64,000 nt of DNA from Malacoraja senta. Its lineage: Eukaryota. The translations under genes and the position numbers were made by a program. Of this stretch, positions 1 through 53,496 are shown piece by piece (position 1 is the stretch's first letter; the number at the start of each line of letters is the position of its first letter). The stretch covers positions 11,596,001 through 11,660,000 of the forward strand of contig CM075989.1 in NCBI GenBank assembly GCA_038087875.1, read 5' to 3'. The notes under the pieces are model-generated. The model ran no database searches. It was given only the letters and a program-made list of their open reading frames with translations, and had not been told where the DNA came from.

Positions 1-619
1 TATTTTTGACCATTTAACATTTAATAAATCAGTTGTATATTAGACAATTTAAATAAATGCATGCCAAAAAATTCACATGGCACTAAGATTGTTATTTGAC
101 ATTCTACAATATGACACCGCACGACAATTGTCCAAAAATGCAGACGTTAAATGTCTTTGCACAGATCAACATTTTAATGCGGTCTAGCGGCTGTAATTGT
201 GCAAAGAAAATGCGTGTCATCTTTATTTTATAAATATTCCAAGGTTGTGGTTTGCACTGAGAACTACCTCATCAATGTTATTGATTTATAATTTATATTT
301 TCCACTGCTTTGAACGAATGACCCTTTGCTTCAATGTCTGAGATTACAGCATCAGTTGCTATGCAACCATTAGAACTGGCAGACTAAAGATGTTGAGAAT
401 GGTAGATGATGCAGCAGCTGGCAGCTCTGAATGTATTCACATTAGACAATAATAGGTAATCTGGATAAATGCATTTCAAATCAGAAATCTGCTGTGGTGC
501 AGACAAGACAGTTAATCACTTGGATAGTAATGCAACCCCAACTCTCTAGACTAACACCAAATGAAACAGGATGATGGCTAAAATGGGAAATACTGTAAAA
601 CAAGTTACATTCATACAAT

Positions 620-990
620 TTGTGGGAAAGAACTGCAGATGCTGCTTTGAATCGAAGGTAGATCACAAAATGCCGGAGTAACTCAGCAGGACAGGCAGCA
701 TCTCTGGAGAGAAGTTTGTTTCGGTGATGAGTAATGTTTCGGGTCGAGACCCTTCTTCAGACTGATGTCGGGGAGGGCGGGACAGAGATAGAATGTAGTC
801 AGACAGTAAGACTGGTGGGAGAACTGTGAGGGGAGGGGATGGAGAAAGAGGGAAAGCAAGGGCTATGTGAAGGTAGAGAAATCAATGTTCATACCGCTGG
901 GGTGTAAGCTACCCAAGCGAAATATGAGGTACTGTTTGTTCAATTTGCGCTGGGCATCACTCTGACAATGGAGGAGGCCCAGGACAGAAA
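620..990 (-). mobile_element. Penelope 3' end / terminal repeat
   Basis: Matches 30120-30430; hammerhead-like motif at 733-760 with the GUC site mutated. Confidence 0.8.
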
Positions 991-1266
991 GCTCATTCAA
1001 GTTTAATCCAGACAACTGCATCCTTCCATTTACCTTAGAAAGAACTAAAATCCAAGTTAAAAACTAGTTGCCAAGGGTCAAAGAACAAAGCATACAAGTC
1101 GATCTGCACGTTACATGTTAAACTATTTAATATATTAACACCAGTTTTCAGTGATACATTGTTTCACAAATTCTGGTCATTTATACTAAACATTGTTTTT
1201 GGACATAATTTTAATTTTGTATCCAAATCAAACTTATTTGATTAACAAATGTCACTAGCTTTCTGC

Positions 1267-13720: not shown

Positions 13721-16189
13721 GGAACATTATCCAGATACTCCAGGAATGAATGTTGTGCCAGGGTGATGTCATCAACCTGTGTGGCAGTAGATAAACCGCA
13801 GTTGCTAAAGGATGTCTGGGAGGTGCGTGAGCACCCTCGGGTGCACTGATACCACGGTCACCACCACAGCCGTCAAATTGCCCTTCCTGAGTGATTCTGT
13901 GGAAAGCGACTGACCGGAGGGTGGAAATCTTTAACCTTTCCCCCCACCAATCTGAGGTTCCCACCAGCTTTAAGATGACACTATTATCCAGATGGCAAAA
14001 AAAAATAAGGCGGTGTGTCTTAATGACTAGCGAACAACGGCTTTGACATCATGAAGTGCTAACTAAGGATCCAACAGGCAAATCGCAAGGGTAACAACGC
14101 AAATCAGTGCAATTCATCTTCCCTACTGGACTTTGAGAAAACAGATAAGACCTTCTAAACATAGTAAGTTCAGCACTTTGCTCTTTGACGCTGTATGCAA
14201 GGAGCCCAGGAATTACTATTGTTTCTGGAGAGAAAGAATGGGTGACGTTTTGGGTCGAGATCCTTCTTCAGTCTGAGTTAGTCCAGCATTTTGTGTCTAC
14301 CTTCGATTTAAACCAGCATCTGCAGTTCTTTCCTACACATTACTATTGTTTCAACAACTAAAGCAGAAAAACTGACTATAGTCAGTGAAGTCCATCCCCA
14401 AAGAAACCAAACATTGGTGCATTGCTGCAGTAATAACCACTTTAAAATCCTAATAAATCTGGTCAAGAAAGACAAAGAATAGAAAGCAATAAGAAATACA
14501 GATTTACAGTCAAATCCCAAGGAAGTACTTATCAAAATGTCAGCTCTCATTTCAAGTGTGCAACTAAAACATCAATTGCATTGCAGATCAATAGTGCGTC
14601 AGGCAATCTGGTTGCAAGATGAATATATTTCGATCAGGAAAAGGAAAAATATTAACTCCATTTAATACCAAACTTCTATTCCAGACATCTTGACAAATGA
14701 CAAAAATATCAGTACTTTGTTTCCAGAATTGAGTATTATATTCAGTCAACTTAGTGTTAAAGTAAACATTTGAAACCATGGATTTTAGTAGTAAGACGTA
14801 AATCACAATCCCCAGGTGGCAGTAGAGTAAAATAATTGCAAGAAAAGACTAGAGAACGTCTTTTCTTATTCATGTGCCTCAAGATAACAAGATCCTGTTA
14901 TTTTGGTTTGCATTAAATCAACCCTACATATCGCACTTTTAGATTTAACTAAAATGTAATAAAAGTGCTCAAGTCAGGCAGCATCTGTGGTGAGAGAACA
15001 TTTAAATATTCCAAAACATGAACCGTTTTTCACACCAGATACTGTCCAACCTGCTGGGTACTTCCATGCTGACTATGGATCACCCATTCACATTAATTCT
15101 ATGTTATCCCACTTTCGCATACACTTCTGACACATTAGACAAATATCTACAGACAGAGGCCAATTTCTGATACACTGCTAGTGGAAGTTAACCATCAGAC
15201 ACAGTAGATTTCCATATTATGAGGTCGTTTAACTATTTTTAATCCTGGAGTTTCTGTAATCTTATAAAATGCCAATGTTTTCTGAAAGAGATTGTAAAAA
15301 TCACAGTCTAAGACCGAGCGCCAGACCTGACCTTCCCAATACGAACGGACACCTCGGTCACAACTGGCATTGCCTCCTAGCATCAGAGACCCAGGTTTGT
15401 CTTCTATAACCAAATTCTGTTACAAAGAGGTAAATAATAACAAGGGTAGACTGCAATCGTATCCACCACCTCTGCTGGTAGCACATTCTCGATATCAACC
15501 ACTCTGTTAAAAAAATCTCCTAATTCCCACAAAGATGCACTCACGATTTGATACTCATACCTTGGAAAAAAGTTAACTTTGTATCCTATTCATGCCTCTC
15601 AATTTTTTATAGACATAGAACAGTACAGCACAGGGGTAGGCCCTTCAGCTCACAATATCTGGGCTGAACACGTAATGTCCTCTGCTTGCTTGTGATCCAT
15701 TTCCCTTCATATCCATGTGTTGATCTAAAAGTCTCTTAAACATCACTATCGTATTTCCTTCCACCAACCCTGGCACCTGTTCAAAGTTGTTTTTACTTCA
15801 GTCACTATACATTTCCATCGGGGTACATCAGCCTTCACTTCAAGAAAAATAAGCCCAGCCTATACATAACTAAAGTACTCTCAACTAAGGTATGTAATTC
15901 TAGATTTACCACATCCTGTGCTCTCTCAAACACAATCGCATGCTTCCTTGTGTGGCTACCAGAACTGCACACAATACTCCAAGTGTGGCCTAATCAATGT
16001 TTTGTGAAGTTGCAACACAAATATTATATTTAAGGCCCTAAATTAAATATATGTCAAACTTACCATATGTGATTTCACCACCCTTGTCATTTTCATTGTT
16101 ACTTTAAGGAAACAAAGAGCCTGGATACTGGGACTCTGTTCATCCACAGCCTACCATTGTATATGTATATCATATACTTATACACACAC

Positions 16190-18262: not shown

Positions 18263-19303
18263 TCCAAATATATATTTTAGTTTATGGTCATATACAGCAG
18301 TATACAATGGAATTCCTTCTTCGCACGGAGCTCAGAATAAACAGAATACACGGTATACCCAATTGGTATTAAAAGGAAACTAATATGCTACATTGACTAT
18401 AATTAGAAGCATTTTCAAACATGTACTGACACACTATTTACTAAGCAACTCCATGCATATTTTGGATACAGACTTCTAAGGCATCTGTTTGAGCTAAATC
18501 AAACAATTGGAAATTGGTGATTTAAGAGATATCTTATCCTAAACTTAGTTCCACTCTTAACTGTACATGTATAATATGAATATATAACATACTATGGTTG
18601 ATATGATTAACTCACTTTATTGTCTGTTTATAAAATTTAGTGCTCACCTATTTTAGACATGGGATTTTTTTTTTTTTTTAAACTGCACTAACCTTTACAG
18701 AACACATCATACGACATAGCTTAAAGTTTTGACATGGTTAACAAACATAAATGCAGAGATTGCTCGCTACATAGTTTGACAAAGGACTTGAATGTAGATT
18801 CATGGCAAGTCAATATTATTCATTTTGTTTCTCAGGCTCAATTTGTTTCTATCCAATTTCCTGTTAAGTTATGGTACTGGTAACAGCCACTGGGTAAGCA
18901 AACAAAATTATTCATGTGCAAGCTTCACTGCAATGCTGGCTAATAGGCTTTGAACACTGAAATATGATTAAAGACACATTTGTTATTGCAATCGTGCAGC
19001 ACTGTGATTTTGATTAGCTTTGCTCATGGAAGAAAATGTCCTATGGCCATGGTACTACTATCAAATAAAAACACAACAAAGAGGTTAAAGTACTGCCCTG
19101 GCAATCCTGAATTATGTATCTCAGTAATTTGATAGCTGCACTGGAATTCAGTTCCAAGGTAGTTCAATCTAATAAATTTCATATAGAAATTGAGTCAAAG
19201 GTATGACAATGTGCATTATGAGTGTAACATAATGCAATTTTTTTTTAACTGCCAGCTTTGGTTTATACATTATGATCAGAACATAATGAACATGCTCTAT
19301 TAC

Positions 19304-19474
19304 CTTCTCCTCAATGCATTTTTTCATCAAAGTCTCTCTACTTTGCAGCTGATTACCCAAATTATGACATTCATCCTCCTTTTCATCAAGCCGTCTCCTA
19401 TGAGTATCCACTTGGCCCATGAGCTCAGAGTTCCTCTTCTCTAGACGACTTTTAGCAGTATCTGTCTTTTTCAC
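19304..19474 (-). CDS. GOLM2: GOLM2/CASC4 coding exon 2 (171 nt, coiled coil)
   Basis: Acceptor TTCTTCACCAG|GTG, donor AAG|GTAATA. Encodes VKKTDTAKSRLEKRNSELMGQVDTHRRRLDEKEDECHNLGNQLQSRETLMKKCIEEK, containing the CASC4 RLEKRNS...VDTH motif; phase 0/0 and in frame with exon 1. Confidence 0.92.
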
Positions 19475-22400
19475 CTGGTGAAGAACAAAAAGCAGATGAA
19501 TGAAGTAATGACTTGAACATTTTACAGGAACCCAAGAGATTCAGAATTAAGAGGTATGATTGAAATTAAAGTTTGATAATTTTATGCACAAATAACATAC
19601 CACTTAACCACAGGGAGACAGCATGAGAAGGCGTGATTGAAATAAAAAAGGTTTGGCTTGGTTTAAATGTCCTCTTAAGTTTTAATATGTTGTTTGTGGG
19701 AATTAACCAATTCCCTGCGGTCCATGAAGAATTACTTGAAAATACTACATTCATAGAAATCACATCCTTGGACAAGATGGACTTAATGTAAACACTTCAA
19801 AGAAAACTAATGTAAACATCACAAATTATATAGTTGATGCAATTTTCATTTTGTCCACATCCCCTTTATGAATCAGGCATCATGACATGGGCTCAAGCGA
19901 TTCTGGCATTCCCAGAAATTAGACCACCAGAATTCTTAGCATTTTGTACCTACAGAAGGAAAGATCAAATGTAGTCAAGTACATTCAGTTTGTACAAATT
20001 CTTAATGTTCAGATACTTTTGGATTGGCACCAAGTCTAATCCAATGTTTATTAAGACAACATAACTACCCAATACACCACCTCAGTGCAATAAGGGTCGG
20101 TCTGTGTGTCAAAAAATGATCAATACCATAAGTTTCCAAGCAAATAAAAATGATTGAACTGAAGCTTCAGAGTTATGGGCAAAGCAAGACTCTCAGTGCA
20201 AAATAAATTTCCCCCGCCTTTCCTGTTCATAGTATGAATGACATTACAAAGTCAGTGAATAGAGGCTTCAGCTGCATTCATAACCCCAATAACCACAAAA
20301 TGAAATATAATAGATGCAAGAAGTCTGGAATAAAACATTAAAATGCTCGCCAGGCAGCATATTTGGGGTGGTGGTGGAGGAAGGAAATATGGCGAGAACA
20401 TTGCTGATGCTATTATTTCAGGCCGAAAATCTTTTATCAGAACTACTAAAAAATAAAGATAGTGTGTTTTAAGAAACATAGGAAGGGAGGGGAAACAAAA
20501 AGGATAGATGGCAGGAGAGGTCAAATGACTGAAGGTAGCAGGGTTGTAAATGCCAAATAATTGTCTGAATTTATCACGGTAACACAGTTAATCTGCTAGA
20601 AATACTACATGAAATAAAAACACTGGAAATGCTGCTTAATTTGAATTTCAGTGGCAACTCCAGAAATCTGTAATGTAGCACCATATGAGGAAATCCATTG
20701 TACTTCAACTGAAAGTATAAATCACATTGAGTTGCACCTCCCACAGATGCATAGAAGAGAACACTGAACGGAGGTAGTTTAGTTGGTAGAGAGACCCAGA
20801 GCACCAACGTTTTCTGGAGAAATCAGTTACCTTGGAATACTGAAAGGGAGTAAAGTACATCAGATGGTTGCCACCAGCAACCATCCATTAAGCGAGCCTG
20901 ATGCGTTCAACAGCAAAAGCTAAAGAAATCCCATCTAGTTCAGGGATGGGGATGAAGGCACAAAAGTAAAAGTGCAGGAAGTGAAGTAAGAATAATCATG
21001 GGGCCCAAACTATTATGCTAATCAAAATTAATGTAAAATGCATTGCTCATTGCAAGTAATAGTCACACATTCATGTTCAATAATCAGGTAATAGTCATCA
21101 TCACCATCACAAAGATGCCCAGTGACTCCTGCTTATTTGCTGCAAAAAGCTTTTGTCACCTCCATCATCTCCTCTCAGTTTACCACATTTTCACCTTCCA
21201 TAAACTCCAGCTTACTGAACTGAACTCTGAAGATCCCAGTCTATAACATCAAGCCCTATTCCTTCCTGGAATTACTGGTTTTCTCTATTCCTCTCATGGC
21301 TGAGCAGCATTACCACTTAGTTAAATGTCTTTCTATAACAAAAAACTCACTGATATAAAACCATGCAATTAGCTAACCTTCTCTAGTCCTACCATTTGCA
21401 AACCTAAACTCGTATACATCCATCCCAATCTCAATCCAGTACTAGCAGTCAAGCCGGTTACTGCCTGGATCATCCCTAAATTCAGTCCATAAACAATGAT
21501 ACCACATCATCCTCTTCAATAAACCACCTCGCTGAATCTTTACTCACCACCAACCACACTCACAACCTCAACCTCACTAATCCACCCCAGCAAAAAAATA
21601 TTTAGCTTAACATCCATTCTCTTCACATCTCTGAAGGTTCTTGGGGCACTAAAAGTACTTGATTATCCAAATTGACACAATTCACAGAAATTTAAATTGT
21701 GCAGTATTTGAAAAAATTGTTGCACTGTCCAATGGAAATATAGCAAACAAAAGTTAACCTAAAATTAATTTGATCCATGGAGACCCAAGAGACTGCAGAT
21801 GCTGGAATCTTGAAGAAAAAAAACCACATACCGCTGGAGGAATACAGCGAATAAGGCTGTGGAGGGAAAGGAATGATTAATATTTCAGGCCAAGATACTG
21901 GGTCGTGACCATTCCATCCACAGATACTGCCTGATCTATTGAGTTCCTCCAGTAGTTTGTTTTTTGATTCATTTGATCCATGTCATGTGCTCACCAAACT
22001 TTGCCTGACAATCTACCAAACTGACATGCCTTTTCTACTGGCCTTCTACGTCTTTCTGTAGAAAAGGTTCTAGTATATCAAAAAATGTAACTGCAGCCTG
22101 ACTTTAATTACATTAACATTACTTATTGTTTTATATTCTATGAAACAAATAAAAAGGGTTTCATTATCTCCTCCGTAGTAACATCAACTGCTGTCTTTGA
22201 AAGCTTGTGCATCTAAATGCCAAGCTAGCTCTATTCCTCCATTGCATTTTAAACTGTTGACACATAACATGTGCACATTGTCTTATGTTTTAAGATGTAG
22301 CACCAGAGTCATTTTTAACATTGCACAAGGGACAAACTTCATCACCTGCACTGCTATTATTTTAAGATTGCCAATGGGTGATGGCATTTGTACAACTCCA

Positions 22401-23639
22401 CTGAAGTGAAAGTCATATTAATTTTTCCCAATTGATTTTTCTTTGGCATTACTACCAAGTCAGCAGGAAAAAGGCAGAGTTACCTGGTTATTCAATGACT
22501 GAGAACCAAAGATACTAGCTGAGAACCTCCTCTCTAGTATTTAGCTTTGTCTTTATGGAGCAGCAGAAATTTGGGTTTTGGGTCAAGTCCACCAACTTAA
22601 AACAAAAGCTGGGTGGGATACTACCAATATCTTTTCCCAACATCACCCAAAAATTATCTTAAAAAATACAAGCCTCAGCTATTTCTTTTGTAAATGTGAT
22701 TAGGTAATCCACATGAAGGCAAAAAGTCAGAAAAATGGGTGCAGGATTAGAATAGCTCATCCTGACATATATTAGAGCCTTCCAATGGGAAACTATTAAA
22801 AAAAAAAAATTGCCCTAAACAATATTCTGTGTTGGCCGTCTTAGAGATACAGACCCAGACACAACTTAAAATTCACTGATCAACAATCACAAGATTAAAA
22901 CATTGATTTCAATAATACAATACTGGAAAGGAGCAGAAAGGTGTATATTCATTTTAATTGGAGACACATTTCTCTAATGTTCACATCTTTTAATGACTTC
23001 ACTGCAGTATAGAGAAAAATCTAAAGCCTATACTTGCATATCCTCAAAACTGCTCCAAGCCCAGCTATTGATTGTACAAAAGCAGTGTTTCTATTTTCTG
23101 AAATTTTTGGATCATTTACAAAATTGGTAAAGAAACTGAATGTTCTTGGCAAAGCACACACTATATTGGTACCTGGAAATACTTTGTCCAGATTGACAGA
23201 ACATCACAAGTTCAAGGCAAAGAGGCCGTTTGGCCCACTGTCTGGGTTATCAATACAATTTCATTACTTTGCTCTTTCACTGTAGCCTGATACTGTATTC
23301 ACTTCAAAGAGTTTCAAACTGCAAGCGAAAAATCATTATTCAGAAATGGCTCCGAAAGAAAGTCAAGTGCAATCTTGAAGCTTGCAAAATGTTATGGCTA
23401 TTGCTGCAAAAATCATGGGTTCAACAACTTTTTCAGAATCGGTTTAAAATTCTTCTTTCTAACTCAAATGATCTTTCAAAACCCCTTCTACCACCCAAGA
23501 AAGAAGTGCTTCAAATGTGAAAAGCAATATGATATATTTGTTTAAAAAAGAACTGCAGCTGCTGGAAAAATCGAAGGTAGACAAAAATGCTGGAGAAACT
23601 CAGCGGGTGAGGCAGCATCTATGGAGGGAAGGAATACGT

Positions 23640-23667
23640 GACGTTTCAGGTCGAGACCCTTCTTCAG
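23640..23667 (-). ncRNA. Minimal type-I hammerhead ribozyme motif (candidate)
   Basis: CUGAAGA-A-GGGU(CUCG)ACCU-GAAA-CG-UC, with a G-U pair closing stem II. Confidence 0.55.
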
Positions 23668-24379
23668 ACTCATATATATTTGTGTAACTTCCATTTTCTT
23701 CACTGGCAACAATAACATGCAAACTTTCAAAAAATTTAAAATGCTTCTTTTCCAGATTTATTTTGAAAGAAAAAGTAATAAATATTGACGACAGGACCCA
23801 AACACCTACACCGAACCCCAGATCATGCACTGTAGCAGTGGATTCTCAAGCAGTGCGGTTGCATATTACAAAAACGTGCACCATGAATAGTTTGCCAGGG
23901 ATAACAATGTCAAAGCAAGCCCATAAGATAGCCAGCAATGACATAGAGAGCATCAGAATCTTTGTCTATCATTCCCAATCCTGTTACTTCACAGGGTATT
24001 CAAACAGTGATCCGTTTAGAGAAGTTCTTGCTACCAATATTCATTCTTTGGTCACCTTGATATTCACATTAAACTGGTATTTTCATTGCCTTTTCACGTT
24101 TTATGATGGTTTCAACTATTGTTCCTTTAGCACCATCCAAAACACTGGAGTTCAGCAGTGCCTGTTGCATTTACTGATCTAATTATTAAAATATAATAAC
24201 TGTACTGATGTGTTCAGAAAAATCAAATTCCAACCAACAAACAAGGTATGCAAGACCCATGTACTAGGTACAACATTAATACAATTTGTATTTTTTTTTA
24301 TTGGAACTTCATTGTTGCATCACATATTCTTAAATTAGTAACCACAGAATTGTTCGTAAAAATGAACCATCCTCTTGGA

Positions 24380-24605: not shown

Positions 24606-25689
24606 CTCTAGGAGTCTAGGTCACTGCATACCATCAAGTAGAAGAGTTCTTTTTTTTATAATGGTGTTTCAGTGTGAAACAGAATGTATAATTCTGTTGA
24701 AGTGCATTCTTTTAAGACTGTGGTATAAACATTCTTTGCTGTTATCAATTACTACATTCTACTTCACAGATGTTCAGGTCAATTGGAAGTCAGACTTGGA
24801 GACAAGAAACACAAGAGACTAGATAGAATCTTGAGCACAAAAACAGTGCCTCAGGAACTCAGGCAGCATCTGTGAAGGGAAATGGACAGGCAACACTTTG
24901 GCACCTTTCTTCATAACCCTTGATGCCTTTAACCTTCAGAAGTCTTTCAAACTATGCTTTGAGTGCAATCAATCACTGAACTACCACAACCTGGGGGATA
25001 AATCACAAAAAAGATTTGAATTAAATTAATTCACGAGTCAAAATCTAGGGGTCATGGTGTTATAATAAAGAATAGGCCTTTTAGTATTGAAATTAGAATT
25101 CTTTAAGTCTGGGGAAACATCCTGCCCACATCTACTCTGTTGCTCCCCCCAAGAATGTTGTACATTTTGACAGTTACCTCTCATTCTTCTGAACTCCAGA
25201 AGAAAGAGGCCTAGGCCTCACCAGTCTCTCTTTATTCACTACAGGGAACCAAGACCAAAGCTCAGGTTTTCAAGTACATTTCTAGACAGAATCTGATGGA
25301 GCTCATCCAATAACTTGTTGGCATGGACCCATGCCATTAAGATTGTCTAGCATTTGGCACTAAATTAGCAAACTCATCCAGAAAACCTATATAACACGTC
25401 TATAGTGTTTTAAGGGTGAATAGTCTGATCTTAGCGTGGTCACATATTACATGTAATAGGCCTTAACCCCGAGATCTGAACATGGAGGTTCAAATTGGCA
25501 GCAGGCAATGAATTGAGTATAATGTAGAAAAACTGAGGCCATAGCAAGATACTTAGAAAATCAGGTCAAAATGATTTAATGAAAGGAAAATAGTTTGACA
25601 AATCTGTGTCTTTTAAAATGTAACAAAAGTATTAGGTGATCAGCACCCAGTGGAAGTAGAGCAGTCCGATTTCCAGAGCAAGAGCGAAG

Positions 25690-29569: not shown

Positions 29570-30020
29570 ACCCAGCTTTGTGTCATCTGCAAATTTGCTA
29601 ATGTTACTTTGAATCCCTTCATCTAAATCATTGGTATATTGTAAATAGCTGCGGTCCCAGCACCGAACCTTGTGGTACCTCACTAGACACTGCCTGCCAT
29701 TCTGAAAGGGACCCATTAATCCCTACTCTTTGTTTCCTGTCTGCAAACCAATTTTCTATCCATGTCTGCACTCTACCCCCAATACCATGTGCCCTAATTT
29801 TGCCCACTAATCTCCTATGTGGGACCTTATCAAATGCTTTCTGAAAGTCCAGGTACACTACATCCACTGGCTCTCCCTTGTCCATTTTCCTAGTTACATC
29901 CTCAAAAAATTCCAGAAGATTAGTCAAGCATGATTTCCCCTTTGTAAATCCACACTGACTCGGCCCGATCCTGTTACTGCTATCCAAATATGCCGCTATT
30001 TCATCTTTTATAATTGACAA
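29570..30020 (-). mobile_element. CR1 LINE RT fragment
   Basis: GFTKGKSCLTNLLEFFEDVT...YLDFQKAFDKVPH...VPQGSVLGPQLF; highly similar to the 61.6-kb copy. Confidence 0.92.
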
Positions 30021-30119
30021 AAGGCTGGAGGGACTCAGTGGGTCAGGCAGCATTTGTGGAGAGAATGGGCAGACAACATTTTGGGTCAGGATCCTTCTGC
30101 TTGGAGAAGGGGTGATAAA

Positions 30120-31190
30120 GCTGAAGGTAGACAAAAATGCTGGAGAAACTCAGCGGGTGAGGCAGCATCTATGGAGCGAAGGAATAGGTGACGTTTCGGG
30201 TCGAGACCCTTCTTCAGACTGATGAAGGGGTGGGGGGCTGGAAGAAGCAGAGACAGTGGGTAGTGGGAGAGCTGGCAAGGGGGGGGAAGGAGGGAGAAAG
30301 CAAGGACTACCTGAAATTGGAGAAGTCAATGTTCATACCGCTGTGGTGTAAACCAAGCAAAATATGAGGTGCTGCTCCTCCAATTTGCAGTGGGACTCAC
30401 TCTGGCCATGGAGGAGGCCCAGGGCAGAAAGGTCGGATACAGAATGGGAGGGGGAGTTGAAGTGCTGAGCCACTGGGAGATTGGGTTGGTTAATGCAAAC
30501 TGTGCGGAGGTGTTGGGCGAAGCGATCGCCAAGCCTGCGCTTGGTCTCACCGATGAAGAGCAGTTGACACCTAGAGCAGCGGATGCAATAGATGAGGTGC
30601 AGGTGAACCTCTGCCTCACCTGGAAAGACTGCTTGGATCCTTGGATGGAGTCGAGGGGGGGAGGTAAAGCGGCAAGTGTAGCATTTCCTGCGGTTGCAAG
30701 GGAAAGTACCAGGGGAGGGGGTAGTTTGGGTGGGAAGGGACGAATTGACCAGTGAGTTATGGAGGGAGCGGTCTCCGCAGAAAGCCAAAAGGGGAGGAGA
30801 TGGGAAGATGTGGCCAGTGGCGGGATCCCATTGGAGGTGGCGAAAATGTCAGAGGATTATCTGTTGTATGTGACGGCTGGTAGGGTGGAAGGTGAGGACG
30901 GGGGGGGGGGATGTTTTACAAGTCCTTGTTATGAGTGGGGGGAATGGGGAGTGAGAGCAGAGCTACGGGATGTAGAAGAGACCCTGGTGAGAGCTTCATC
31001 TATAGTCAAAGAGGGGGACCCCCGTTCCCTAAAGAATGAGGACATCTCCGATGCCCTGGTTTGGAACACCTCATCCTGGGTGCAGATGCGGCGCAGACGG
31101 AGGATTTGGGACTAGGGGATAGAGTCCTTACAGGAAGCAGGGTAGGAAGAAGTGTAGTCCAGATAGTCATGGGAGTCAGTGGGTTTGTAG
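30120..31190 (-). mobile_element. Penelope-like element (RT C-terminus, GIY-YIG endonuclease, terminal repeat with hammerhead motif)
   Basis: PGTFPCNRRKCYTC, IYCIRCSRCQLLFIGETKRRLGDRFAQH and KLEEQHLIFCL motifs; hammerhead motif at 30190-30217. Confidence 0.9.
30190..30217 (-). ncRNA. Minimal type-I hammerhead ribozyme motif (candidate) in a Penelope terminal repeat
   Basis: CUGAAGA-A-GGGU(CUCG)ACCC-GAAA-CG-UC. Confidence 0.65.
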
Positions 31191-32819
31191 TAGAAAAAGC
31201 TGTAGTAGATAATGCTGGAAGAGGTCGAGGTGGGGCAAATCCTGACCAGTGACATGTGAATACATATTGGGGGGGGGGGGGGAGTGTGATTGGCAGATGG
31301 GTGAAGATAGTTACAAAGGCTAGAGGTGAAAAGACCAGGGTTGAGGGGAAGGGGGTGGCAGGGGCAGAGATTGGATAAAAGTGAAATGTGGGACTCGGGT
31401 TAGGAGATGAATGAATGGAGTGGAACGGAGCAAGGTGACTTGGGTGTGCGAGAAATGTGTGCACAAGAGAGGAGAGGTAGGGGAGTATTCTTTGAAATTG
31501 GAAAATTCAATGCTTATGCCATTGGGTTGCAAGCCATCCAAGGGGCATGCAAGGTGCTGTTCATCTGGTTTGCATGTGACCTCACTCTGGCAAAGCAGAT
31601 AGAAATAAGCAGCGCAAGGGTGGAGAACCATAGAGTTGGAGGCTGTGAGGGGAGATAAGATCTGGAGATGGTGACCCAGTGTTCGCCAGCGAGGTCATGG
31701 TCAAGTGGTGGGCATGAGGAAGTGTCCGAGAACTGACACCTAACCTCAGCATGGAGGGGGTCATTCTGTCAGACTACAAAAGCCACTCCCTTTTTTGCTC
31801 ATGCTCAGACTCACCATCTTCACCTTTTACATAAAAAGTTTCTCATCACTTTAAAATGTGTTTTTTATATTTACAATTTCAAACGAGCAGACTAAACTGA
31901 TGATCATTTGAATAAACCCAAAATACACAGGTGTTGTTCCCATAATCAACCGACAAGCACAAAATGATCCAACTACTTATTGCCACTTCTGGAACTATAC
32001 TTCCTAAATAAATGAAAACACTTAACTAATAAGAGAAATGCATCAAATATTCCCCTAACTTCCTTTAAATTGCTTTGAATCATTTATGTGATTGAATATA
32101 ACCAAGTTAATAAAATTAAATTTCTTTATCACTTACTTCATGTCCCACACTATTTTCAAGCTGTTAAAGCAATTCCAGGAGAATAAAACTTTGCTAATGT
32201 TCCACATACAAATCAAAATGTCAATTTTTAATCACATTCTTGGCATAGTGGATTTGTTTAGAATGCAACATCTCTGCAGAAACTAGTTCGAATTACTTTT
32301 TTAGCATCAGGTCATTTATTGGTTTACAGTAAAATATGGGAATAGGCAGGAAAATTATGTTAAGATAGAAGCTGTCAGGTTTGAGAGGATGAATGGCCTA
32401 CTCTTGCTCCTATTTCTTCATTTCATGATATGTTCAGGTTTATTGTGTTATCAAGCTACTCCAACAAATCAAAATTGTCATTGATCAGATATCAGGCAGA
32501 AGTGAACTATTGATATAATGTTACACACTGCAGGGTATAAATAGGTGTGTACTCTTTGCATTTATTTTATAACCTATCTATCACCTGCAGCTCGTGCTGA
32601 CATGTTACAATCTTTGACTCTATTCATTTTATGGTAGCAGAGCATTAGAAGAAATTCAGTTTGTGGAACAAGGAAATATACAAATCATTTGGTATTTAGA
32701 TGTGGCAACTACATCTTCCAACAGGTGGATTACCTTTCATAAAGCCTATCCCAAAGTTATATTTTCTTTGCTTTCTCATTGCACTGCAACAGGCACTTGG
32801 TAATATAGCCTGCTCACAT

Positions 32820-35600
32820 TAGAGTGATACAGTTTGGAAACATGCCCTTTGGCCCAACTCACCCACACCAGCCAACAATGCCCCAGCTACACTAGTCCCA
32901 CTTGCCTGCGTTTGGTTCATATCCCTCCAAACCTGTCCTATCTATGTACCTGTCTAGCTGTTTCTTAAACGATGAGGTAGTCCCAGCTTCAATTAGACTG
33001 TGCATTTACCCAATCTATTCCACTCATGATTTTGTATACCTCTATAAGATCTCCCCTCATCCTCCTGCGCTCCATGGAATAAACTCTCTCTATAGCTCAC
33101 ACCCTCTAGTCCTGGCAACATCCTCATAAATCTTTTCTGAACCTTTTCAAACTTGATAATATCTTTCCTATAACATGGTGTCCAGAACTGAAAACAATAT
33201 TCTAAATACAGTCTCACCAATGTCTAAGACAACTGCAACACGACCTCCCAACTTCTATACTCAATATTCTGATTGGTGATGCCCAAAGAGCCATAAGCCT
33301 TTTTGACCACCTTATCTACCTGCAACTCGACCTTCAAGGAACCATGCACCTGTATGCCTAGATCCCCGTGCTCTACACTACCCAGAAGCCTACCATTTAC
33401 TGTGTAGGTCATGCCCTTGTTCAACATTCCAAAATGCAACACCTCACTTCTCTGTATTAAATTCCATCAACCATTCCTCTGCCACCTGGCCAATCGATCC
33501 AGATCCTGCCCCAATTGTTCACAACCATCTTCACTATCTGGAAAACCACTAACTTTTGTATCAGCAAACTTGCTAATCTTGCCCTGTATGTTCTCATCCA
33601 AATCATTGATGTAGATGACAAACAGTAATGGGCCTAGCACCAAACCCTGAGGCACACTAGTCACAGGCATCCAGTCTGCGAAGCAACCTCCACCATTAAC
33701 CTCTGCTTCTTTCCATGGAGCCAATTTGCTATCCATTCAGTTATCTCTCCTTGGATCCCATGCGATCTAACCTTCCAGAGCAGCCTACCATGTGGAACCT
33801 TGTCGAACACCTTACTGAAGTCCATGTGCACAACATCTACAGCTCTGTCCTCAACCTTTTTTGGTCACGTCTTCAAAAAAAATCAATCAGATTTTTGAGA
33901 CACGACCTCCCACGTACAAAACCATGCTGACTCTCTCTAATCAGCCCTTGCCCATCCAAATGCCTGTATAACCTATCCCTCAGAATACTCTCCAGTAACT
34001 TACCAACTACAGATGTTAAGTTCACCGGCCTACGGTTCCCAGCATTTTCCCTGCAGCCCTTCTTGAAAAGAGATACAACAATTGCCACCCTTCAGCCTTC
34101 CGGCACCTCTCCTGTACTTAAGGACGACTCGTAAATTTCAACCAGGGCTCACACAACTTCCTCTCTAGTTTCCCACAATGTCTTCGGATATATCAGAACA
34201 GGCCCTGGAGATTTGTCTACCTTCAAACACGACAGTACCTTCAGTACTTTTTCAGCAGTAACCCCGACTGCTCTCCAGACACTACCAGTGACAGCTCCAA
34301 TTTCCTCCATCCTATTGTCTTTCTCCTCGGTAAATACAGAGGATAAATACACATTTAGGACCTTGCCCATCTCTTGTGGCTCCAGACAGGTGACCGCTTT
34401 GATTCCCGAGAGGTCCCACTCTCTCTCTAGTTACCCTTTTCCCCCTTAAGTATTTATAAAATATTTTGGGATTGTCCTTAATACTACCCGCCAGAGCTAT
34501 CTCCTGGCCCCCTTTTGCCCTTCTGATTTCCTTTTTTAGTTTACTCCTTAGTTCCCGAAACTCCTATAGGGATGCACTTGATCCCAGCTGTCTATACCTG
34601 TCACATGCATCCTTCTTGTTTTTGACTAACGTCTCAATTTCCCTCGTCAGTCAAGCTTCCGTACGTTTGCCTGTTTTGCCCTTCGCTCTAATGGGGACGT
34701 ACACATCTTGAGCTCTCTTCAGTACACTTTTAAAAACATCCCACTTGGTCAATGTCCTTTCCCCTCTAATAACATACTCCAGTCAACTTGAGCGAGACCT
34801 TCTCTCATACCCTCAAAGTTGGCCTTACCCCACCCAGTTGAGCATTTCAACATGTGGATCCTCTCTGTCCCTATCCATAACTATCTTAAACCTAATTGAA
34901 CTGTGGTCCACTGGTCCAAAAAGGCTCCTCCACACACACTTCATTAACTTGCCCTTCCCAATTTCCCAATACTAGATCCAGCGTTGGCCTCTCACATGTG
35001 GGGGCCTCCACATACTGCTTAAAACTCTCCTGAACACTTGAGGAATTGCACCCCATCTGAACCCTTCGTGCTATGATTTTCCCAGTCTATATTGGGACAG
35101 TTATAAACCCCTACTATAACAACCTTATTTGACCTGCAGCTAGCTGTCGGCAATCTCCCGGTGCATTTGTTCTTCTAACTCCCCTTGACTATTCTGCGAT
35201 CTGCAGTACACCCCCAACAAGGTGATCATCCCTTTCTTGTTCCTCAGTTCCACCCATATAGCCTCACTAGACAAACCATCCGTAATGTCACCTCTGAACA
35301 CAGCCGTTTGCACATTCTCCCCATGACCACGTGGGTTTTCTCTGAGATCTTCGGTTTCCTCCCACACGCCAAATACGTACAGGTTCGTAGGTTAATTGGG
35401 TGGTATAAATGTGAATTGTCAATTGTCCCTAGTGTGTGTAGATAGTGTTAATGTGCAGGGATTGCTGGTCAATGCAGACTCGGTGGGCTGAAGGGCCTAT
35501 TTCTGCGCTGTATCTCTAAACTTCTAGCCTCTCACTTACCTCTGTCCTGCACGAGATCCCACCCCCTTGCCAATCTAGTTTAAACCCACCCGTGTAACAT
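32820..35600 (-). mobile_element. CR1 LINE, about 2.8 kb, degraded, with a SINE inserted at about 35305-35522
   Basis: Successive ORF2 fragments: EAIWVELRNKKG (endonuclease), DKSPGP, QHGFVRGRSCL, PQGLVLGPLLF, SKFADT, LEYCFQFW; 3' UTR near 32830-32900. Confidence 0.9.
35305..35522 (+). mobile_element. V-SINE (HE1-like), 5'-truncated
   Basis: V-domain TTTGCACATTCTCCCC...CGGTTTCCTCCCACAC and GGGCTGAAGGGCC tail. Confidence 0.8.
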
Positions 35601-36272
35601 TCTATTTGTAGTGGTTTTTCCAAGGACAGATAACAAGATAATGCAGTCTCTGATGATTTCCCTTCATTCACACAATCATTCTATTCCTATGGGCATCACC
35701 TTCCCACACTCAGAATTTCAGAGTCATTTCCAATTTCAAATACCAATAGCAGAGACATTATCCACAGTTATTAATTCTACAACTGAATGTGTGTGTCACC
35801 ACCCACGCCTTCAAACACCAACAAACTAAATTAATGTCATTGCCTCCAATTAGACACATCTGGGTCAAAGATCAGCACATGGATATGCTTGGAACAGAGG
35901 GACATGAATTATATGTAGGTTGATAAGATTAGTTTATCTTGGTATCATGGTCTGTACAAACATTGTGGTCTGAAGGGCCAGTTCTTCTACTGTACATTTC
36001 TATGTTTTACATAAACCTGCTGCACTTTCAGTGCATGTAAAAGTATGAGCACCAAACATTTTCTGTAATAATTTGAGTAAAATGAATAATAAATATGCAA
36101 AGTAAAGCCACAGGTGAGTGTATTTCATGTGGGAGACACAGTAAGCCAGTTCCAACATGCCTTTTTTCAACCCTGGGTTCACAGGTTCAATTCCGTTGGT
36201 CTCAGAAGATGGACACAAAATGCTGGAGTAACTCAACAGGTCAGGCAGCATCGCTGGAGAAAAGGAATAGGT

Positions 36273-36300
36273 GACGTTTCGGGTCAAGACCCTTCATCAG
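36273..36300 (-). ncRNA. Minimal type-I hammerhead ribozyme motif (candidate)
   Basis: Minus strand reads CUGAUGA-A-GGGU(CUUG)ACCC-GAAA-CG-UC: intact core, 4-bp stem II, palindromic ACGU stem III, GUC cleavage triplet. Stem I is only about 2 bp. Confidence 0.65.
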
Positions 36301-36849
36301 ACGGTTGGTCTCAGATGGGTTCATAAGTGGGTGTACACCTATATTTTGTACCCGTGTGCCTAAGCCTATATAGATTTGGGCACAGCTAACACTCACCCGC
36401 CCCTTGCATTTGATGAATGGGTCCACACCAATATTAGGGTATTGGTGGATTAAGCGAACTAGGTGCATCCATGACAAGTGATGTGTATGATTGTACATGC
36501 TTCCTGTCACCACTTCAGATTCAACTTTATTGTCATTGTGCAGTGTACAGTACAGTTGAATCTGAAGTGGTGACAGGAAGCGGAAGCATGTACATGCTTC
36601 CTGTCACCACTTTACCCACCTTGCCTGGGTGTCTCACACCAATCTACCCACCATGTTCATAGTTCTAGGAGCAGAATTTGGCCATTCAGCCCATCAAGTT
36701 ACTCTGCTATTTAATATTGGATGATCTATCCGTCCCTCTCAACCCCATCTGGTTTTCCCCATAACCCCAGACTCACTAATCAAGTTTGAGTGTCTCACTC
36801 ACCCACTCCACCCACCGGGAAGAGGATGGTGTGCATGTACACAGGATCC

Positions 36850-37900
<1,051 letters not shown>

Positions 37901-40900
37901 CCGCATTCGTTGAACTTGGGGAAATGAATTGGTGTGATGGAGGATAAAGTATCAACAACAACATTGATATTTACCTTCCGTAAACGAATACATTTCTACC
38001 ACCTGCTTCCCCCTTGACTTGCATTTTACAATGTTCTCTTTGTAAACAATATTACATTGCTAAGAAAAACACACACAAAATGCTGGAGGAGTTCTGGCGT
38101 GCTGGCGGGTCAGGTAGCTTCTGCCGAGGGAAGGGACAGACGGCATCTCGGGTCGGGACCTTTCTTCAGGCTGCCCGTTTTATCGTTTTAAAAGATGTTG
38201 AGTCTTGGACGAACAATTAGCTACTTCCCATTTCATTTATTTCCAGTTCCAGGATATTATTTATTTAATCTTGATGTGTTCCTGTTAATTTACAGGATGT
38301 GATTGTCACTGGTATAGACTGTATTTATTACCCCTTTTCTAATTGCCCTTGAGAAGACAGAGTGAACTACATTCTCGAACCGCAGGTGCTTCCACAGTAC
38401 AATTGGGGAGGGAATTCCGGGGTTAATGATGATTAATAAATAGAGATATATTATCAAATCAGGATGATCTGTGTCTTGGAATCTGGTGACATCACCCAGT
38501 GAGCCCCAGGAAAATAACCTGCCATCCATCCCCAATCTGGTCTATGTGTGACTCCAATGTTATCAATCGGGTGATGTATTTGTCTCTTCAATGCTGGTGC
38601 AGTATAAAATAGATCAACCTAATGCTTAGATATGTATTCTGAATCTATCCCATTTAGCTAATTGAGAAATAAGGACCTGCAGATGCTGGTTAACATCCCA
38701 GGTCAAAGACCTTTCATCAGACCTGAAGATTCTTCAGTCTGCAATATTGGCTCTGCAAATACTTAATTCTTACTGTGTTTTGACATAATGGCTCTGATCT
38801 ACCTAGACTGAGCACTTGCTATACCATTTCAGAGAGAAATTCAGATTCTAATACACTGCTGCATATATTTCCTTCTCTAAAGCACATTAGTGAATGAACC
38901 AAGTGTATTTTCACGACATTCATTAGTTTCAATATCAGCATTACAATAAGAATGTTTTTTGATTCTAACTTTTTAAAACTAATTTAAGTACATTTAACTT
39001 CAGCTGTTTTGGAACACATTTTAATTAATATAAAAAATTCACCCTTGTATGTATTCTTGTTAAAGTTCATTAGGAAATCAAGAGCCAAGTGTATTATTGC
39101 CATATGTCCCGAAATGGAACAATTAAATTCTTACTTGTAGCAGCGCAAGTTCAACAGATTTGTAAACATTGTACACTGTATACATCATAATAAACAAAAA
39201 ACGTTCAGTGTATATATACATTTTAAAAAAAACAGTAATGCCCCCCAAGTCTATGTAGTTCAGAGCTGTGGGTCTCTGACAATGCTGGCTGTCTTTTTGA
39301 GGCAGCAACTATCATAGATCCCTTCGATGGTGGGAGGTCAGTACCCGTGATGGACTGGGCAGTGTTCAGCAATTCTTCACCTTTCTTCTGTAAAAATATC
39401 TTCACCGTTCTACTGAATGAAGCAGTGGTGGGTTCAAATTAAAGATTTTCTCAGTAGCTGGGCATCTTTAACTTTGAATTTCATGACTTCAATAAATGTA
39501 GTCCAGTCGGGTTTGTTGTCATATGCTCAAATACGATGAGGTACAGGTGCAATGAAAACGTTGCCTCTGCAGCAACATGACAGATACATAGATTCAGAGA
39601 GCACACAAAAATGTGAATTATACATAAATTACACATGTTCTACAAGTGTAAAGAAAAGGTCTGTGTAAAAACAAGACTTTCGTGCAAAGCACAATTAGTT
39701 AACATGTAAGGGAGTGCAGGTTCACTGTATTTGGGTCCACGTGACAATAATAAATCAGTATCAATATTGAATGTAGATTACAAGATTCTGCCCAAGTCCC
39801 TGTGTACGTTTGTCATGAAGGAGTGAAAAGGAATGCAATGATCTTTAGCAAGGTTTGTCCCAAGCAGCTTTGTAATGCAGTACTCTGTGCAGTTTTACAT
39901 GTTTTGCCTTTTGCACAGAAACATAGTGAGACAAATATTGAATGCTGCAAGAAAATCATCAACTCAGTGAAAGAAGAACTTTGGCCTGCTCGTAACATTT
40001 GTCTCCAAAGCATAGAGATGTCCACAACTGATTGCACATTCTATAGTGCGGGAGTGTGTGCTGAGGAATGCACTGAAGCCTGATGAAGCAACAATCTAGG
40101 GTCATGCGTCACTGGACATGGCAGGCCTGTCCCATGTACAGCTTCTCAAATGCTTCAAGGCTGCATCATTTAACAGTGAAACATTGGAAATGATGACTTT
40201 TTTTTAAGGAAATGTGCTGAATTGCTTGAATTTTTAAAAATGTTGTGTCCCAATTGCATTCACTGTACATATTGTGAAGATAATGTATTGTTGGGGGGAA
40301 ATAAAATGTGTGTCCTCGTGATCTCCAGATCAATAATGAATGTTTTAGCAACAACCCCCTGATTTTGCCTGGAGAAATCACATTAATGATGTGACTGCCA
40401 ACTGTTGCATGTGATAGCAACTTCTGAGTACCCTTGCAAGTGCAGAAGCCCTGAACTGCCATTAGTTATTTCTCAATAATAATTTAGAGCCCTGCGGCCA
40501 AATGCAAGAGCGTGAAGATTACACCAGATCATGCTTCAGGCCTCATCTAAACAAATTCAGGTGTACCACAGTAACAGTGGTTCTGAAAATAACAGCTGTG
40601 TTGACCCAGGAAGCTTTCAGTTAATGTACATATACAGTTAGTATTTTAGATTATTGACATGTTTTTAAAATGAATATAAATGTTTGCAGTGTTATTTTGT
40701 AAAACTAAATAATTTCATTTTTTTTTATAATTTGAAGGTTTGTAATTATTTTGAACGGATATGAGAAATATTCGGTAGTTCAAAGCCTTAACAGCTGGTT
40801 AATGGCGCATGACTTAGCTGGCTGTCAAAGAGCTTTGGGCAGTTTCATGGGCGGGCCTCGTTTTGGTTCACTCACTCCATGATTCTGCTGCCAGGCAGTG

Positions 40901-50605: not shown

Positions 50606-51929
50606 TCTACATAAATACTGGCTTGCAGAATGGGCTACCAATTTCTTCCTGGTTTTATACGCACCTCTGCAAATAGAAGTTTCAACATCATCAATATTCT
50701 GAAAAAACATTACTTGCAATTATTAACTTTAGTACCTGTTAATAGAAAGTATTTCATATTTACTCCAGAGCAAAGTTTCCCATTGGATTTGTTCCCTTTC
50801 AAGGACGTATTGGACGGAGTGTTTGTTGTCTCCAGGAGGGGGCAGCGTTTCCCACTTTAATTCTCATTGCAGCGACTGATCGCTGCCTCTCAGTGAACGT
50901 TTGACTCTTTCAAAGGTAAAATCTGAGCAAAATCGATTCACAGCAAAACATTATGCCTTTGAGCAGAAACATTTTCTGTTTGAACTAAAGCAAGCACTCG
51001 CAATGTGATTTTTTTTACCAGCAGATGCTATGCAATCAAATTCTTTGAACTAATTTGATGCCTCTTAAATGTTCATATATATATATATATATATCGGTTT
51101 TCCTACAGCATAGTGGTTCTGACCCTAACCAGTTTTAAGAAGGGTCTCGACCCGAAACGTCACCCTTTCCTTTTCTCCAGAGACGCTGCCTGTCCCGCTC
51201 AATTACTCCAGCTTTTTGTGTCTACCTTCGGTTTAAACCAGCATCTGCAGTTCCTTCTTATACATAGTGGTTCTGTTCCTGGACTAGACATATAGCGAAC
51301 GGGGTTAAAATTCTGATGTGGTGATTTGCGAGTTTAAATTCGCATTAAAACAGAATTGCAAATGAAAACTTGGTCTCAGCATAAGTGGCCGCATCTCTGT
51401 CAGTTTGTGTGACAGCCCATCTGGTTCATAGCGTCCAACAGGAAGAACACCTGCCACTCCCTCCCAGGGGAACGTGACTCGGCTACTACACTGGCAGATT
51501 TGTCTGCTATAACTTCCCTCTGAAGGGCCCTGTCTTATCAAACTGCTTGCCCAGTTTCTCAGGGTCAGCAATGAAAGGTCCCCAGAAGTGTGTTTTTTTA
51601 CATCCCCCTGCGTGGACGACTGCAACTTTTGTCTCGATTCGTTTGCAGTTGGGTCTCTTGACACTTGAAGAAGAGTCGAAGCTGACTCTCACTGCAAGAC
51701 AAGTCAAGTCGAGCTTCTTGTCATATGCGTAGATGGTGAGGTACAGGTACAATGAAGAACTGAAGGAGTGATGCACTGGGCTGGGATTGTGATTGGGAAA
51801 TGTCCAGGGTTCACGCAAAGCTACCACTGTAATTCTCTCGACAGAAGTGCCAGCTGGTTTCGGGGCTCCAGTGTGGACACAGGTCCTACATTTACTGGTC
51901 GAGTTCTGTCAGCCATTCCATGGGCTCCT

Positions 51930-53316: not shown

Positions 53317-53496
53317 TGTAGCGGCGCCACCTAGCGCACGCAGATATCGAACCCGGCGTTCGGAAGCCGCGGTCACGTTGTTTTCGGAGGGGCCGTTTTC
53401 GCGCGGTTTTCCCTTGGCGCGAGTTAGTTGAGTGCTGACAAACCTGTGTACTGCAACTTACTTTCGAATAAAGTTTTGGTTGAAACTCCAGTAGTC
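53317..53496 (+). repeat. 5' LTR (3'-truncated)
   Basis: Matches the 3' LTR from TGTAGCGGCGCCACC to ...TCCAGTAGTC, then joins directly to protease codons; AATAAA at 53467. Confidence 0.9.

What the first reader, a model, noticed from the sequence alone, without database searches (positions are those of the whole stretch)
36195..36315. 97-bp mobile unit with an intact CUGAUGA hammerhead ribozyme core, sense to GOLM2 intron 1
Seen: 36207-36303 is flanked by a perfect 12-bp duplication (GTTGGTCTCAGA). On the minus strand, which is the GOLM2 pre-mRNA strand, it carries CUGAUGA-A-GGGU(CUUG)ACCC-GAAA-CGUC. Established: Penelope-like elements carry minimal type-I hammerheads whose palindromic stem III favours dimeric cleavage. 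Inference: this is a tiny non-autonomous, ribozyme-bearing retroposon (retrozyme-like) that places a potential self-cleavage site about 820 nt downstream of the exon-1 donor. Stem I is short, so monomer activity may be weak.
Basis: partly seen in the sequence, partly recalled or inferred. Interest (0 to 1): 0.7.

Follow-up and report, generated by a model that had tools for sequence, protein, structure and literature searches.

The report
Penelope retrotransposon stub with minimal hammerhead
This is a short end-piece of a very common jumping gene (a Penelope-like retrotransposon) in the first intron of the GOLM2 gene of what is likely a skate or ray; it carries an already known self-cutting RNA motif that likely does not cut here, so it is real but ordinary.

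Summary
In detail: 97 bp (36207-36303, minus strand), an exact 12-bp duplication, all 12 hammerhead core bases, sense to GOLM2 intron 1. It is not a unique or independent retrozyme. It is the hammerhead end (pseudo-LTR) of a Neptune-type Penelope-like element. The window holds 28 matches. Two directly follow endonuclease-coding remnants, and others show the Penelope hallmarks: optional 35-nt tail, inverted pairs and 11-14-bp duplications. About 100,000 contigs per sequencing run match it. The insertion is old, present at the same site in six related organisms. Cleavage is unlikely: helix I has 2 bp, the copy is a monomer, and the predicted share of the active-like fold is about 2e-5. Across copies the core is no more conserved than the rest (0.81 vs 0.78, p 0.29). 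Two more core-complete sense copies sit in the same intron. The one point of interest is that many stubs begin 3-12 nt before the CUGA box, not at the cut site. This suggests uncleaved templates whose RNA starts there. The scan has noted this family and this edge before in other shark and ray genomes. Interest is low.

The parts
36195..36206 (.). Target-site duplication, copy at the element's 3' end; its 2 bases next to the element also match the family's usual 3' end (possible priming microhomology)
36304..36315 (.). Target-site duplication, copy at the element's 5' end
36207..36303 (-). Solo pseudo-LTR stub of a Penelope-like element: 3 nt, hammerhead core, about 66 nt downstream; no 35-nt tail; 87 of 96 positions match the majority of 15 other window copies
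36294..36300 (-). Hammerhead CUGANGA box (C3-A9), followed by the extra A at 36293 typical of Penelope minimal hammerheads
   Evidence: PMC4209133
36281..36292 (-). Helix II, 4 bp with G10.1-C11.1 closing the core, CUUG loop
36273..36280 (-). GAAA box, ACGU palindrome (36277-36274) standing in for helix III, C17 at 36273; predicted cut between 36273 and 36272
36271..36302 (-). Helix I: only two pairs, 36301-36272 and 36302-36271
36220..36251 (-). Hairpin downstream of the cut site, shared by the family (outer 6 bp; 78% and 91% of cells paired in its two helices); candidate protein-binding or reverse-transcription start signal (inference)
37125..37274 (-). GOLM2 coding part of exon 1; donor at 37125/37124
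19301..19477 (-). GOLM2 exon 2 (intron 1 spans about 19478-37124)
30123..31330 (-). Degraded 5'-truncated Neptune-type Penelope-like element in the same intron: thumb region, CX4CxxC linker finger, GIY-YIG endonuclease (coding match 30354-31192), pyrimidine-rich 3' UTR, then the same hammerhead unit (30123-30221) with a complete core
610..1000 (-). Second element end: endonuclease C-terminal remnant (869-997), 3' UTR, hammerhead unit (655-764), 35-nt tail
23532..23687 (-). Another solo stub in GOLM2 intron 1, sense, complete core, with tail and a 14-bp duplication (1 mismatch)
51109..51275 (+). Solo stub with tail and exact 13-bp duplication; core has 2 mismatches
14212..14352 (.). Inverted-pair insertion with exact 14-bp duplication; the inverted arm ends at the same 5' edge just before the CUGA box

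Best explanation
The 97-bp unit is a solo end-piece (pseudo-LTR) of an abundant Penelope-like retrotransposon, likely inserted long ago by target-primed reverse transcription and now likely a neutral passenger whose hammerhead does not cut GOLM2 RNA. Shown: the same unit directly ends endonuclease-coding remnants in this window; the family has 11-14-bp duplications, an optional tail and inverted arms; the site is shared by six relatives. Inferred: the element's endonuclease nicked the target with a 12-nt stagger. Its reverse transcriptase started inside the RNA about 66 nt downstream of the hammerhead, at the nearer of two start sites (hence no tail). It copied through an uncleaved hammerhead and stopped 3 nt beyond the CUGA box. 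[quoted passage not shown]
For: 28 matches in 64 kb, 0 in each of 5 reversed or shuffled controls. Units at 30123-30221 and 655-764 lie directly downstream of remnants matching shark proteins with RT motif YIDD, a linker finger and a GIY-YIG-type endonuclease; the zebra-shark homologue P0003 reads on into the same motif at its C-terminus. Tail motif after 10 of 28 hits, and 6 inverted pairs. Duplications of 11 bp or more, at most 1 mismatch, at 5 of 15 insertions examined. These are the Penelope hallmarks in Craig et al. and Arkhipova et al.. Frangieh et al. showed two internal start sites that define the tail, use of unprocessed RNA, and no cleavage without protein. 104,653-113,195 contigs per run laid on the stretch, depth concentrated on the unit. 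Element present at this site in organisms B and C (31 element letters plus flank) and D-G (4 of 4); flanks differ at 10-16 of about 332 and 10-13 of about 194 letters. Joint probability of helices I and II with a free core in a 61-nt monomer is 1.8e-5; helix II is 0.03 in 400-nt context. Core 0.81 vs downstream 0.78 identity, permutation p 0.29. 11 sense vs 6 antisense hits in the gene, p 0.33. 5' ends: 10 of 28 at the edge, 12 inside, 6 running into the UTR; post hoc p 0.007, or 0.0002 on the 18 strongest.
Against: No empty site was found, so the duplication is not proven to be a target duplication by comparison. This copy has kept all 12 core bases although old; only 6 of 21 aligned copies did, though at 91% identity that is not unusual. 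Nearest-neighbour folding ignores core tertiary contacts and protein help, and a 2-bp helix I has a precedent in D. virilis Penelope. The Pfam GIY-YIG match is below its curated cut-off (18.4 vs 22.6 bits). No full-length element is in the window, so the RNA-start step is untested. The edge test is post hoc, counts both arms of inverted pairs, and depends on where the profile begins.
Confidence: 0.8

Rival explanations
1. The stubs are an independent non-autonomous mini-element (SINE-like or retrozyme-like): short units are themselves transcribed and re-mobilised in trans by the Penelope protein, perhaps through rare tandem or circular forms.
For: Fixed 5' edge and own duplications on solo units. 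Stubs outnumber coding remnants in the window. Head-to-tail joints with a 91-nt period occur in 13, 19 and 25 contigs of three runs (the list was cut and counts are incomplete). Li et al. 2026 report retrozymes derived from pseudo-LTRs, including in one cartilaginous fish.
Against: This copy is a monomer. Tandem joints are rare against about 100,000 laid contigs. The stub is 87% identical to the end of the coding remnant at 30123, with no separate promoter seen. RNA reads of the family lie equally on both strands (4272 vs 4281 depth), as expected from read-through of many host loci rather than from a dedicated transcript.
Confidence: 0.13
2. The copy is an active or host-retained ribozyme that cuts GOLM2 pre-mRNA 852 nt after the first donor, alone, as a dimer with another copy, or with help from the element's protein.
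For: All 12 core bases, G10.1-C11.1 and the ACGU palindrome are intact. Sense orientation. Retained at the site in seven organisms. The Anolis Penelope hammerhead cleaves when its protein is present. Two more core-complete sense copies lie on the same pre-mRNA at 30123 and 23573.
Against: 2-bp helix I and disfavoured fold. The ACGU duplex is only -1.7 kcal/mol, the nearest core-complete partner is 6 kb away, and the predicted dimer pairs helix II strands between molecules instead of forming the hammerhead. Single minimal hammerheads showed no detectable cleavage in vitro, and 8 of 9 Xenopus dimers were inactive. No excess core conservation across copies, no sense depletion. No pile-up of read ends in one RNA run (a weak test, no read came from this locus's unique flanks).
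Confidence: 0.04
3. The stub is plain random 5' truncation, or what remains after deletion or recombination of a longer copy; the apparent edge is an artefact of the C-rich UTR or of the profile's start.
For: 5' truncation is typical of these elements. 12 of 28 hits do start inside the unit. Solo pseudo-LTRs in rotifers were ascribed to recombination or deletion. The UTR just upstream is a pyrimidine tract that could stall copying.
Against: The duplication abuts both ends, which argues for a single insertion event. Three duplication-bounded solo copies start 3, about 4-6 and 12 nt before C3, and inversion junctions fall at the same place.
Confidence: 0.2

Closest known systems
Minimal type-I hammerheads (min-HHR) in pseudo-LTRs of metazoan Penelope-like elements (Cervera and De la Pena 2014, PMC4209133; parts 1-2 of 4 read)
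   Same: CUGANGA and GAAA boxes, extra base between 9 and 10.1, G10.1-C11.1, palindromic 15.2-16.2 with no helix III; mostly dispersed single copies or opposite-strand pairs tied to truncated elements.
   Different: Helix I is 2 bp (paper: 4-5 bp; 2 bp only in the D. virilis variant). Helix II is 4-5 bp (7-8 bp in the Schistosoma families). The parts I read name bony fish, coelacanth, frog and reptiles, not sharks or rays.
Neptune-clade endonuclease-positive Penelope-like elements (Craig et al., bioRxiv 2021.04.23.441226, passages; Arkhipova et al. PMC3846280, passages)
   Same: C-terminal GIY-YIG endonuclease with a CX2-5CxxC linker finger, 5' truncation, inverted 5' copy, optional 30-40-bp tail, variable-length duplications, solo pseudo-LTRs.
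   Different: Only degraded remnants here; clade assigned by the linker finger, not by a tree. Solo stubs dominate and share a sharp 5' edge, which I did not see described in the passages read.
Poseidon element of Anolis, PAc (Frangieh et al. 2024, PMC11167929; parts 1-2 of 4 read)
   Same: Two 3' end positions separated by a tail; inserted copies contain the whole hammerhead, as expected from uncleaved template.
   Different: Different clade. In PAc the ORF starts inside helix II; whether that holds here was not tested.
Non-LTR retrozymes of animals (Cervera and De la Pena 2020, PMC7229834, passages; Li et al. 2026 preprint, parts 1-3 of 5)
   Same: Non-coding, type-I hammerhead, related to pseudo-LTRs, can occur as monomers.
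   Different: Defined by tandem units, in the 2020 paper with canonical, efficient hammerheads and circular RNA. This is a monomer with a minimal hammerhead and its own duplication.

Membership tests
min-HHR of Penelope-like elements | Conserved core boxes CUGANGA, GAAA, UH | tested here: met
   12 of 12 core positions
min-HHR of Penelope-like elements | Extra base between 9 and 10.1, and G10.1-C11.1 pair | tested here: met
   A36293; G36292-C36281; features
min-HHR of Penelope-like elements | Palindromic 15.2-16.2, no helix III | tested here: met
   ACGU at 36277-36274
min-HHR of Penelope-like elements | Helix I of 4-5 bp | tested here: not met
   2 contiguous pairs; a 2-bp helix I is described for the D. 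virilis variant
min-HHR of Penelope-like elements | Lies in the terminal repeat of a Penelope-like element | tested here: met
   Same unit follows endonuclease remnants at 30354-31192 and 869-997
min-HHR of Penelope-like elements | Self-cleavage (weak, as dimer or with protein) | not testable with these tools
   Needs a bench assay; folding predicts the helices are rarely formed
Rfam hammerhead families | Covariance-model match | tested here: not met
   0 hits at gathering in the window; none of 6 hits at E up to 10 is a hammerhead
Neptune-type Penelope-like element (parent) | C-terminal GIY-YIG endonuclease with two cysteines inside the motif | tested here: met
   Motif present; Pfam PF01541 E 0.0028, below the curated cut-off; 11 homologues, best E 1e-48
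Neptune-type Penelope-like element (parent) | CX2-5CxxC linker finger | tested here: met
   Present in the 30333-30848 frame and in P0001, P0002, P0004, P0006
Neptune-type Penelope-like element (parent) | Reverse transcriptase upstream of the endonuclease | tested here: inconclusive
   YIDD in 5 of 8 homologues checked; in the window only the thumb region precedes the endonuclease, with a separate RT piece at 4298-4646
Neptune-type Penelope-like element (parent) | Optional 30-40-bp tail, inverted 5' copies, variable duplications | tested here: met
   Tail 10 of 28 hits, 6 inverted pairs; duplications of 11-14 bp at 5 of 15 insertions
Neptune-type Penelope-like element (parent) | Placement in the Neptune clade by RT phylogeny | not tested
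   No reference set fetched
Non-LTR retrozyme | Two or more consecutive units, each with a complete hammerhead | tested here: not met
   Monomer at this locus; head-to-tail joints elsewhere are rare
Non-LTR retrozyme | Canonical type-I hammerhead with 6-bp helix I and loop contacts | tested here: not met
   2-bp helix I; canonical form described
Non-LTR retrozyme | Abundant circular RNA | not testable with these tools
   Only one poly(A) run of a relative was laid, about 6 in 100 of it read

The most novel reading that the evidence does not exclude
Skate and ray genomes carry a very large number of fixed-length hammerhead stubs made by 'strong-stop' copying of the 5' end of the Penelope RNA. 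The core-intact sense copies in introns, this one included, are latent ribozymes that cut host pre-mRNAs when the element's protein is expressed, giving a transposon-switched, genome-wide layer of intronic cleavage. The fixed-length origin alone is more likely (about 0.4) but less surprising.
Probability: 0.04. Interest if true: 0.7.

Novelty: new member of a known kind. Interest (0 to 1): 0.14.

Why it matters
As it stands it matters little: it is one of very many fossil ends of a known retrotransposon class. The family is useful as a record of mechanism. Its two 3' ends and sharp 5' edge can test, on thousands of natural insertions, where Penelope reverse transcription starts and stops and whether the hammerhead is cut before copying, which is still open. 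If intronic sense copies could be switched on by the element's protein, that would be a new way for a transposon to affect host transcripts, but nothing here points to it.

Tried and rejected
Whole-genome search: no genome is held for this window, so family statistics rest on the 64-kb window and on laid contigs. Rfam: no hammerhead match. Two scans of metagenome contigs for more copies with flanks found 0 each. Empty-site search: none in 6 relatives; for D-G only 20 element letters lay inside the stretch, below the tool's 31-letter bridging rule, but no loose end or joint was listed at the boundary. Core conservation at the orthologous site could not be read: differences near contig ends were not listed (4-6 unlisted per run). 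No RNA holder was listed for the stretch; this is no evidence on expression. Covariation on alignment A1 (21 copies): 80.9% of cells paired, helix II has 0 of 5 pairs with two-sided change; the two-sided changes in helix I coincide with decayed or misaligned rows, so I do not count them. For the core-conservation test I used 15 of the 20 other rows, dropping 5 that were cut or misaligned at the 5' end. The link between PLE fragment 25735-26626 and the copy at 26812, which I first noted, is not clean: the inverted pair there has its own 11-bp duplication. Literature: two searches for this family in sharks, skates or rays gave no paper describing it among those listed (25 of 1,057 listed, 3 of 3); that is not proof it is unpublished, and Repbase was not available. 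Lunse et al. 2016 on Penelope hammerhead dimers could not be read; I saw only its title and a review's passage. Supplements of PMC4209133 and of the 2026 preprint were not seen and may list this family.

Full report
Observation. Positions 36207-36303 are flanked by an exact 12-bp direct repeat that cannot be extended outward; 5 of 3000 random flank pairs reached 12 or more anywhere in comparable zones. On the minus strand all 12 hammerhead core positions are present, with an extra A after A9, a 4-bp helix II closed by G10.1-C11.1, an ACGU palindrome where helix III would be, and C17 at 36273. The host gene is GOLM2 on the minus strand: exon 1 matches named GOLM2 proteins of skates and rays at 92-94% and of sharks at 72-77%, and three more exons map further down. 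The organism is therefore most likely a skate or ray (inference). The element begins 822 nt, and the predicted cut lies 852 nt, after the donor. Rfam models do not detect the motif.

It is one copy of a very common repeat. A profile from 8 copies finds 28 matches covering 3.4% of the window, and none in five reversed or shuffled controls. In three public runs 104,653, 105,439 and 113,195 contigs were laid on a 1.4-kb stretch, with depth concentrated on the unit. The tool warns that depth is no copy number, but with the window density this points to roughly 10^5-10^6 copies per genome (inference). The focal copy matches the majority of 15 other copies at 87 of 96 positions.

The repeat is the end of a Penelope-like element. 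The copy at 30123-30221 lies directly downstream of a degraded frame encoding a thumb region, a CX4CxxC linker finger and a GIY-YIG-type endonuclease, with a pyrimidine-rich 3' UTR in between. The Pfam match is weak (E 0.0028, below the cut-off), but 11 homologues were found, the best at E 1e-48 from sharks and rays; 5 of 8 checked carry the RT motif YIDD, and one reads on into the same hammerhead sequence. The copy at 655-764 has the same arrangement. The linker finger marks Neptune and Nematis elements (passages); I did not build a tree. The family also shows the other hallmarks given there and in PMC3846280 (passages): a tail motif after 10 of 28 hits, 6 inverted pairs, and duplications of 11-14 bp at 5 of 15 insertions examined. 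Cervera and De la Pena described such minimal hammerheads as mostly single, dispersed and tied to truncated elements.

Age. Contigs of organisms B and C run from the left flank 25 letters into the element and from 31 letters inside it into the right flank. Four of four further organisms gave one contig each that aligns from 36284 through the right flank with no loose end at the boundary; only 20 element letters were inside that stretch, below the tool's bridging rule. Flanks differ at 10-16 of about 332 and 10-13 of about 194 letters. The insertion thus predates the split of these organisms. No empty site was seen, so the duplication is not confirmed that way. Run X1 is identical to the window in its unique contigs and may be its source, so it is not independent.

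How it most likely arose. Frangieh et al. showed for an Anolis element that reverse transcription starts at two internal sites that define the optional tail, that unprocessed RNA is the main substrate, and that the hammerhead cuts only with protein. This fits: the focal copy ends at the nearer position, without tail, and contains the core upstream of the cut, which a cleaved 3' product would lack. Its 5' end is 3 nt before C3. Of 28 hits, 10 start at that edge with no UTR upstream, 12 start inside the unit and 6 continue into pyrimidine-rich sequence. A post hoc binomial gives p 0.007, or 0.0002 on the 18 strongest hits; it counts both arms of inverted pairs and depends on the profile's start, so it is only a lead. 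The duplication-bounded solo copies start 3, about 4-6 and 12 nt before C3. I infer that the template RNA often begins there, so that copying from the nearer repeat runs off its 5' end. D. virilis Penelope transcripts start inside the upstream repeat (passages), and its intron ends at the 5' side of helix I; in this family a pyrimidine tract and CAG also precede the box, so a spliced 5' end is a second possibility. A strong pause is a third. None was tested. Earlier notes of this scan on other shark and ray genomes report the same family and edge. They prompted this count and are not independent support.

Is it likely to cut GOLM2 RNA? Probably not. Helix I has two pairs, with predicted probabilities of 0.001-0.002. 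The joint probability of helices I and II with an unpaired core is 1.8e-5 in a 61-nt monomer, and helix II falls to 0.03 in 400-nt context. The ACGU duplex is worth -1.7 kcal/mol and the predicted dimer is not a hammerhead. These models omit tertiary contacts and proteins. Published single minimal hammerheads gave no detectable cleavage, and 8 of 9 Xenopus dimers were inactive. Helix II shows no two-sided changes. In the GOLM2 unit 11 of 17 hits are sense (p 0.33), and copies at 30123 and 23573 are also sense, in intron 1 and core-complete, so there is no sign of selection against them; the numbers are small. One poly(A) run of a relative (about 6 in 100 read) covered the unit equally on both strands, showed no pile-up of ends, and had no reads on the unique flanks next to the element or on exon 1; 99 in 100 reads came from other copies, so it says nothing about this locus. 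In favour of activity: the core is fully intact in an old copy (6 of 21 aligned copies are), and a 2-bp helix I has a precedent.

Comparison and verdict. It works like, and by four of five sequence features tested is, a Penelope minimal hammerhead; helix I is shorter than the usual 4-5 bp. It fails the two retrozyme features tested (tandem units, canonical ribozyme), although 91-nt head-to-tail joints exist in 13-25 contigs per run and retrozymes are reported in one cartilaginous fish. My two searches found no paper on this family in sharks or rays, Repbase and the supplements were not seen, and Lunse et al. 2016 was not available. Verdict: real, a new member of a known kind, an old and likely inert insertion. 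Interest 0.14.

Noticed in passing
window 30123-30340 (minus): The element end in GOLM2 intron 1 keeps a pyrimidine tract followed by CAG just before the CUGA box, in the sense direction; it resembles a splice acceptor, as at the D. virilis Penelope hammerhead. The focal stub lacks it.
   Followed up: no
window 26693-26907 and 43845-44066: Inverted pairs with different junctions: at 26737/26812 both arms start within the helix II palindrome (fold-back); at 43891/43960 one arm starts at the 5' edge and the other, by eye, near the GAAAC-GUC region.
   Followed up: partly
window 30016-30221 (minus): Two units in direct tandem 22 nt apart; the downstream one is much older (70 of 96 vs 89 of 95 matches to the majority) with a broken core, so it is not a working dimer.
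   Followed up: partly
joint 36302 to 36212: Head-to-tail joints with a 91-nt period in 13, 19 and 25 contigs of three DNA-type runs and 3 RNA reads; could be rare mini-tandems formed at a short shared motif at both ends of the unit.
   Followed up: no
window 53428-56696 (plus): Gypsy-type LTR retrotransposon pol (protease, RT, RNase H, integrase by Pfam), split over several frames.
   Followed up: no
window 4129-4646, 25735-26626, 61265-61492, 8522-8668, 31491-31598: Further Penelope-like coding remnants (RT or endonuclease pieces) by tblastn; 61265-61492 is followed by a LINE-type RT fragment and may belong with the unit at 62986.
   Followed up: partly
window 36480-36620: Short inverted-repeat structure (about 36503-36540 against 36544-36585) with a nearby direct repeat, partly matching another high-copy repeat.
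   Followed up: no
window 35400-35520 and 35947-35993: Fragments that look like a common shark and ray SINE (label recalled, not tested).
   Followed up: no
window 1694-1734 and 38701-38737 (minus): Two short hairpin-like pieces with CUGAUGA and GAAA-like boxes, diverged from the main family; possibly an older hammerhead subfamily.
   Followed up: no
window 37275-37415 (minus): The frame upstream of the GOLM2 ATG stays open and matches an unnamed protein (P0013) for about 47 more residues; may be only an open 5' UTR.
   Followed up: no
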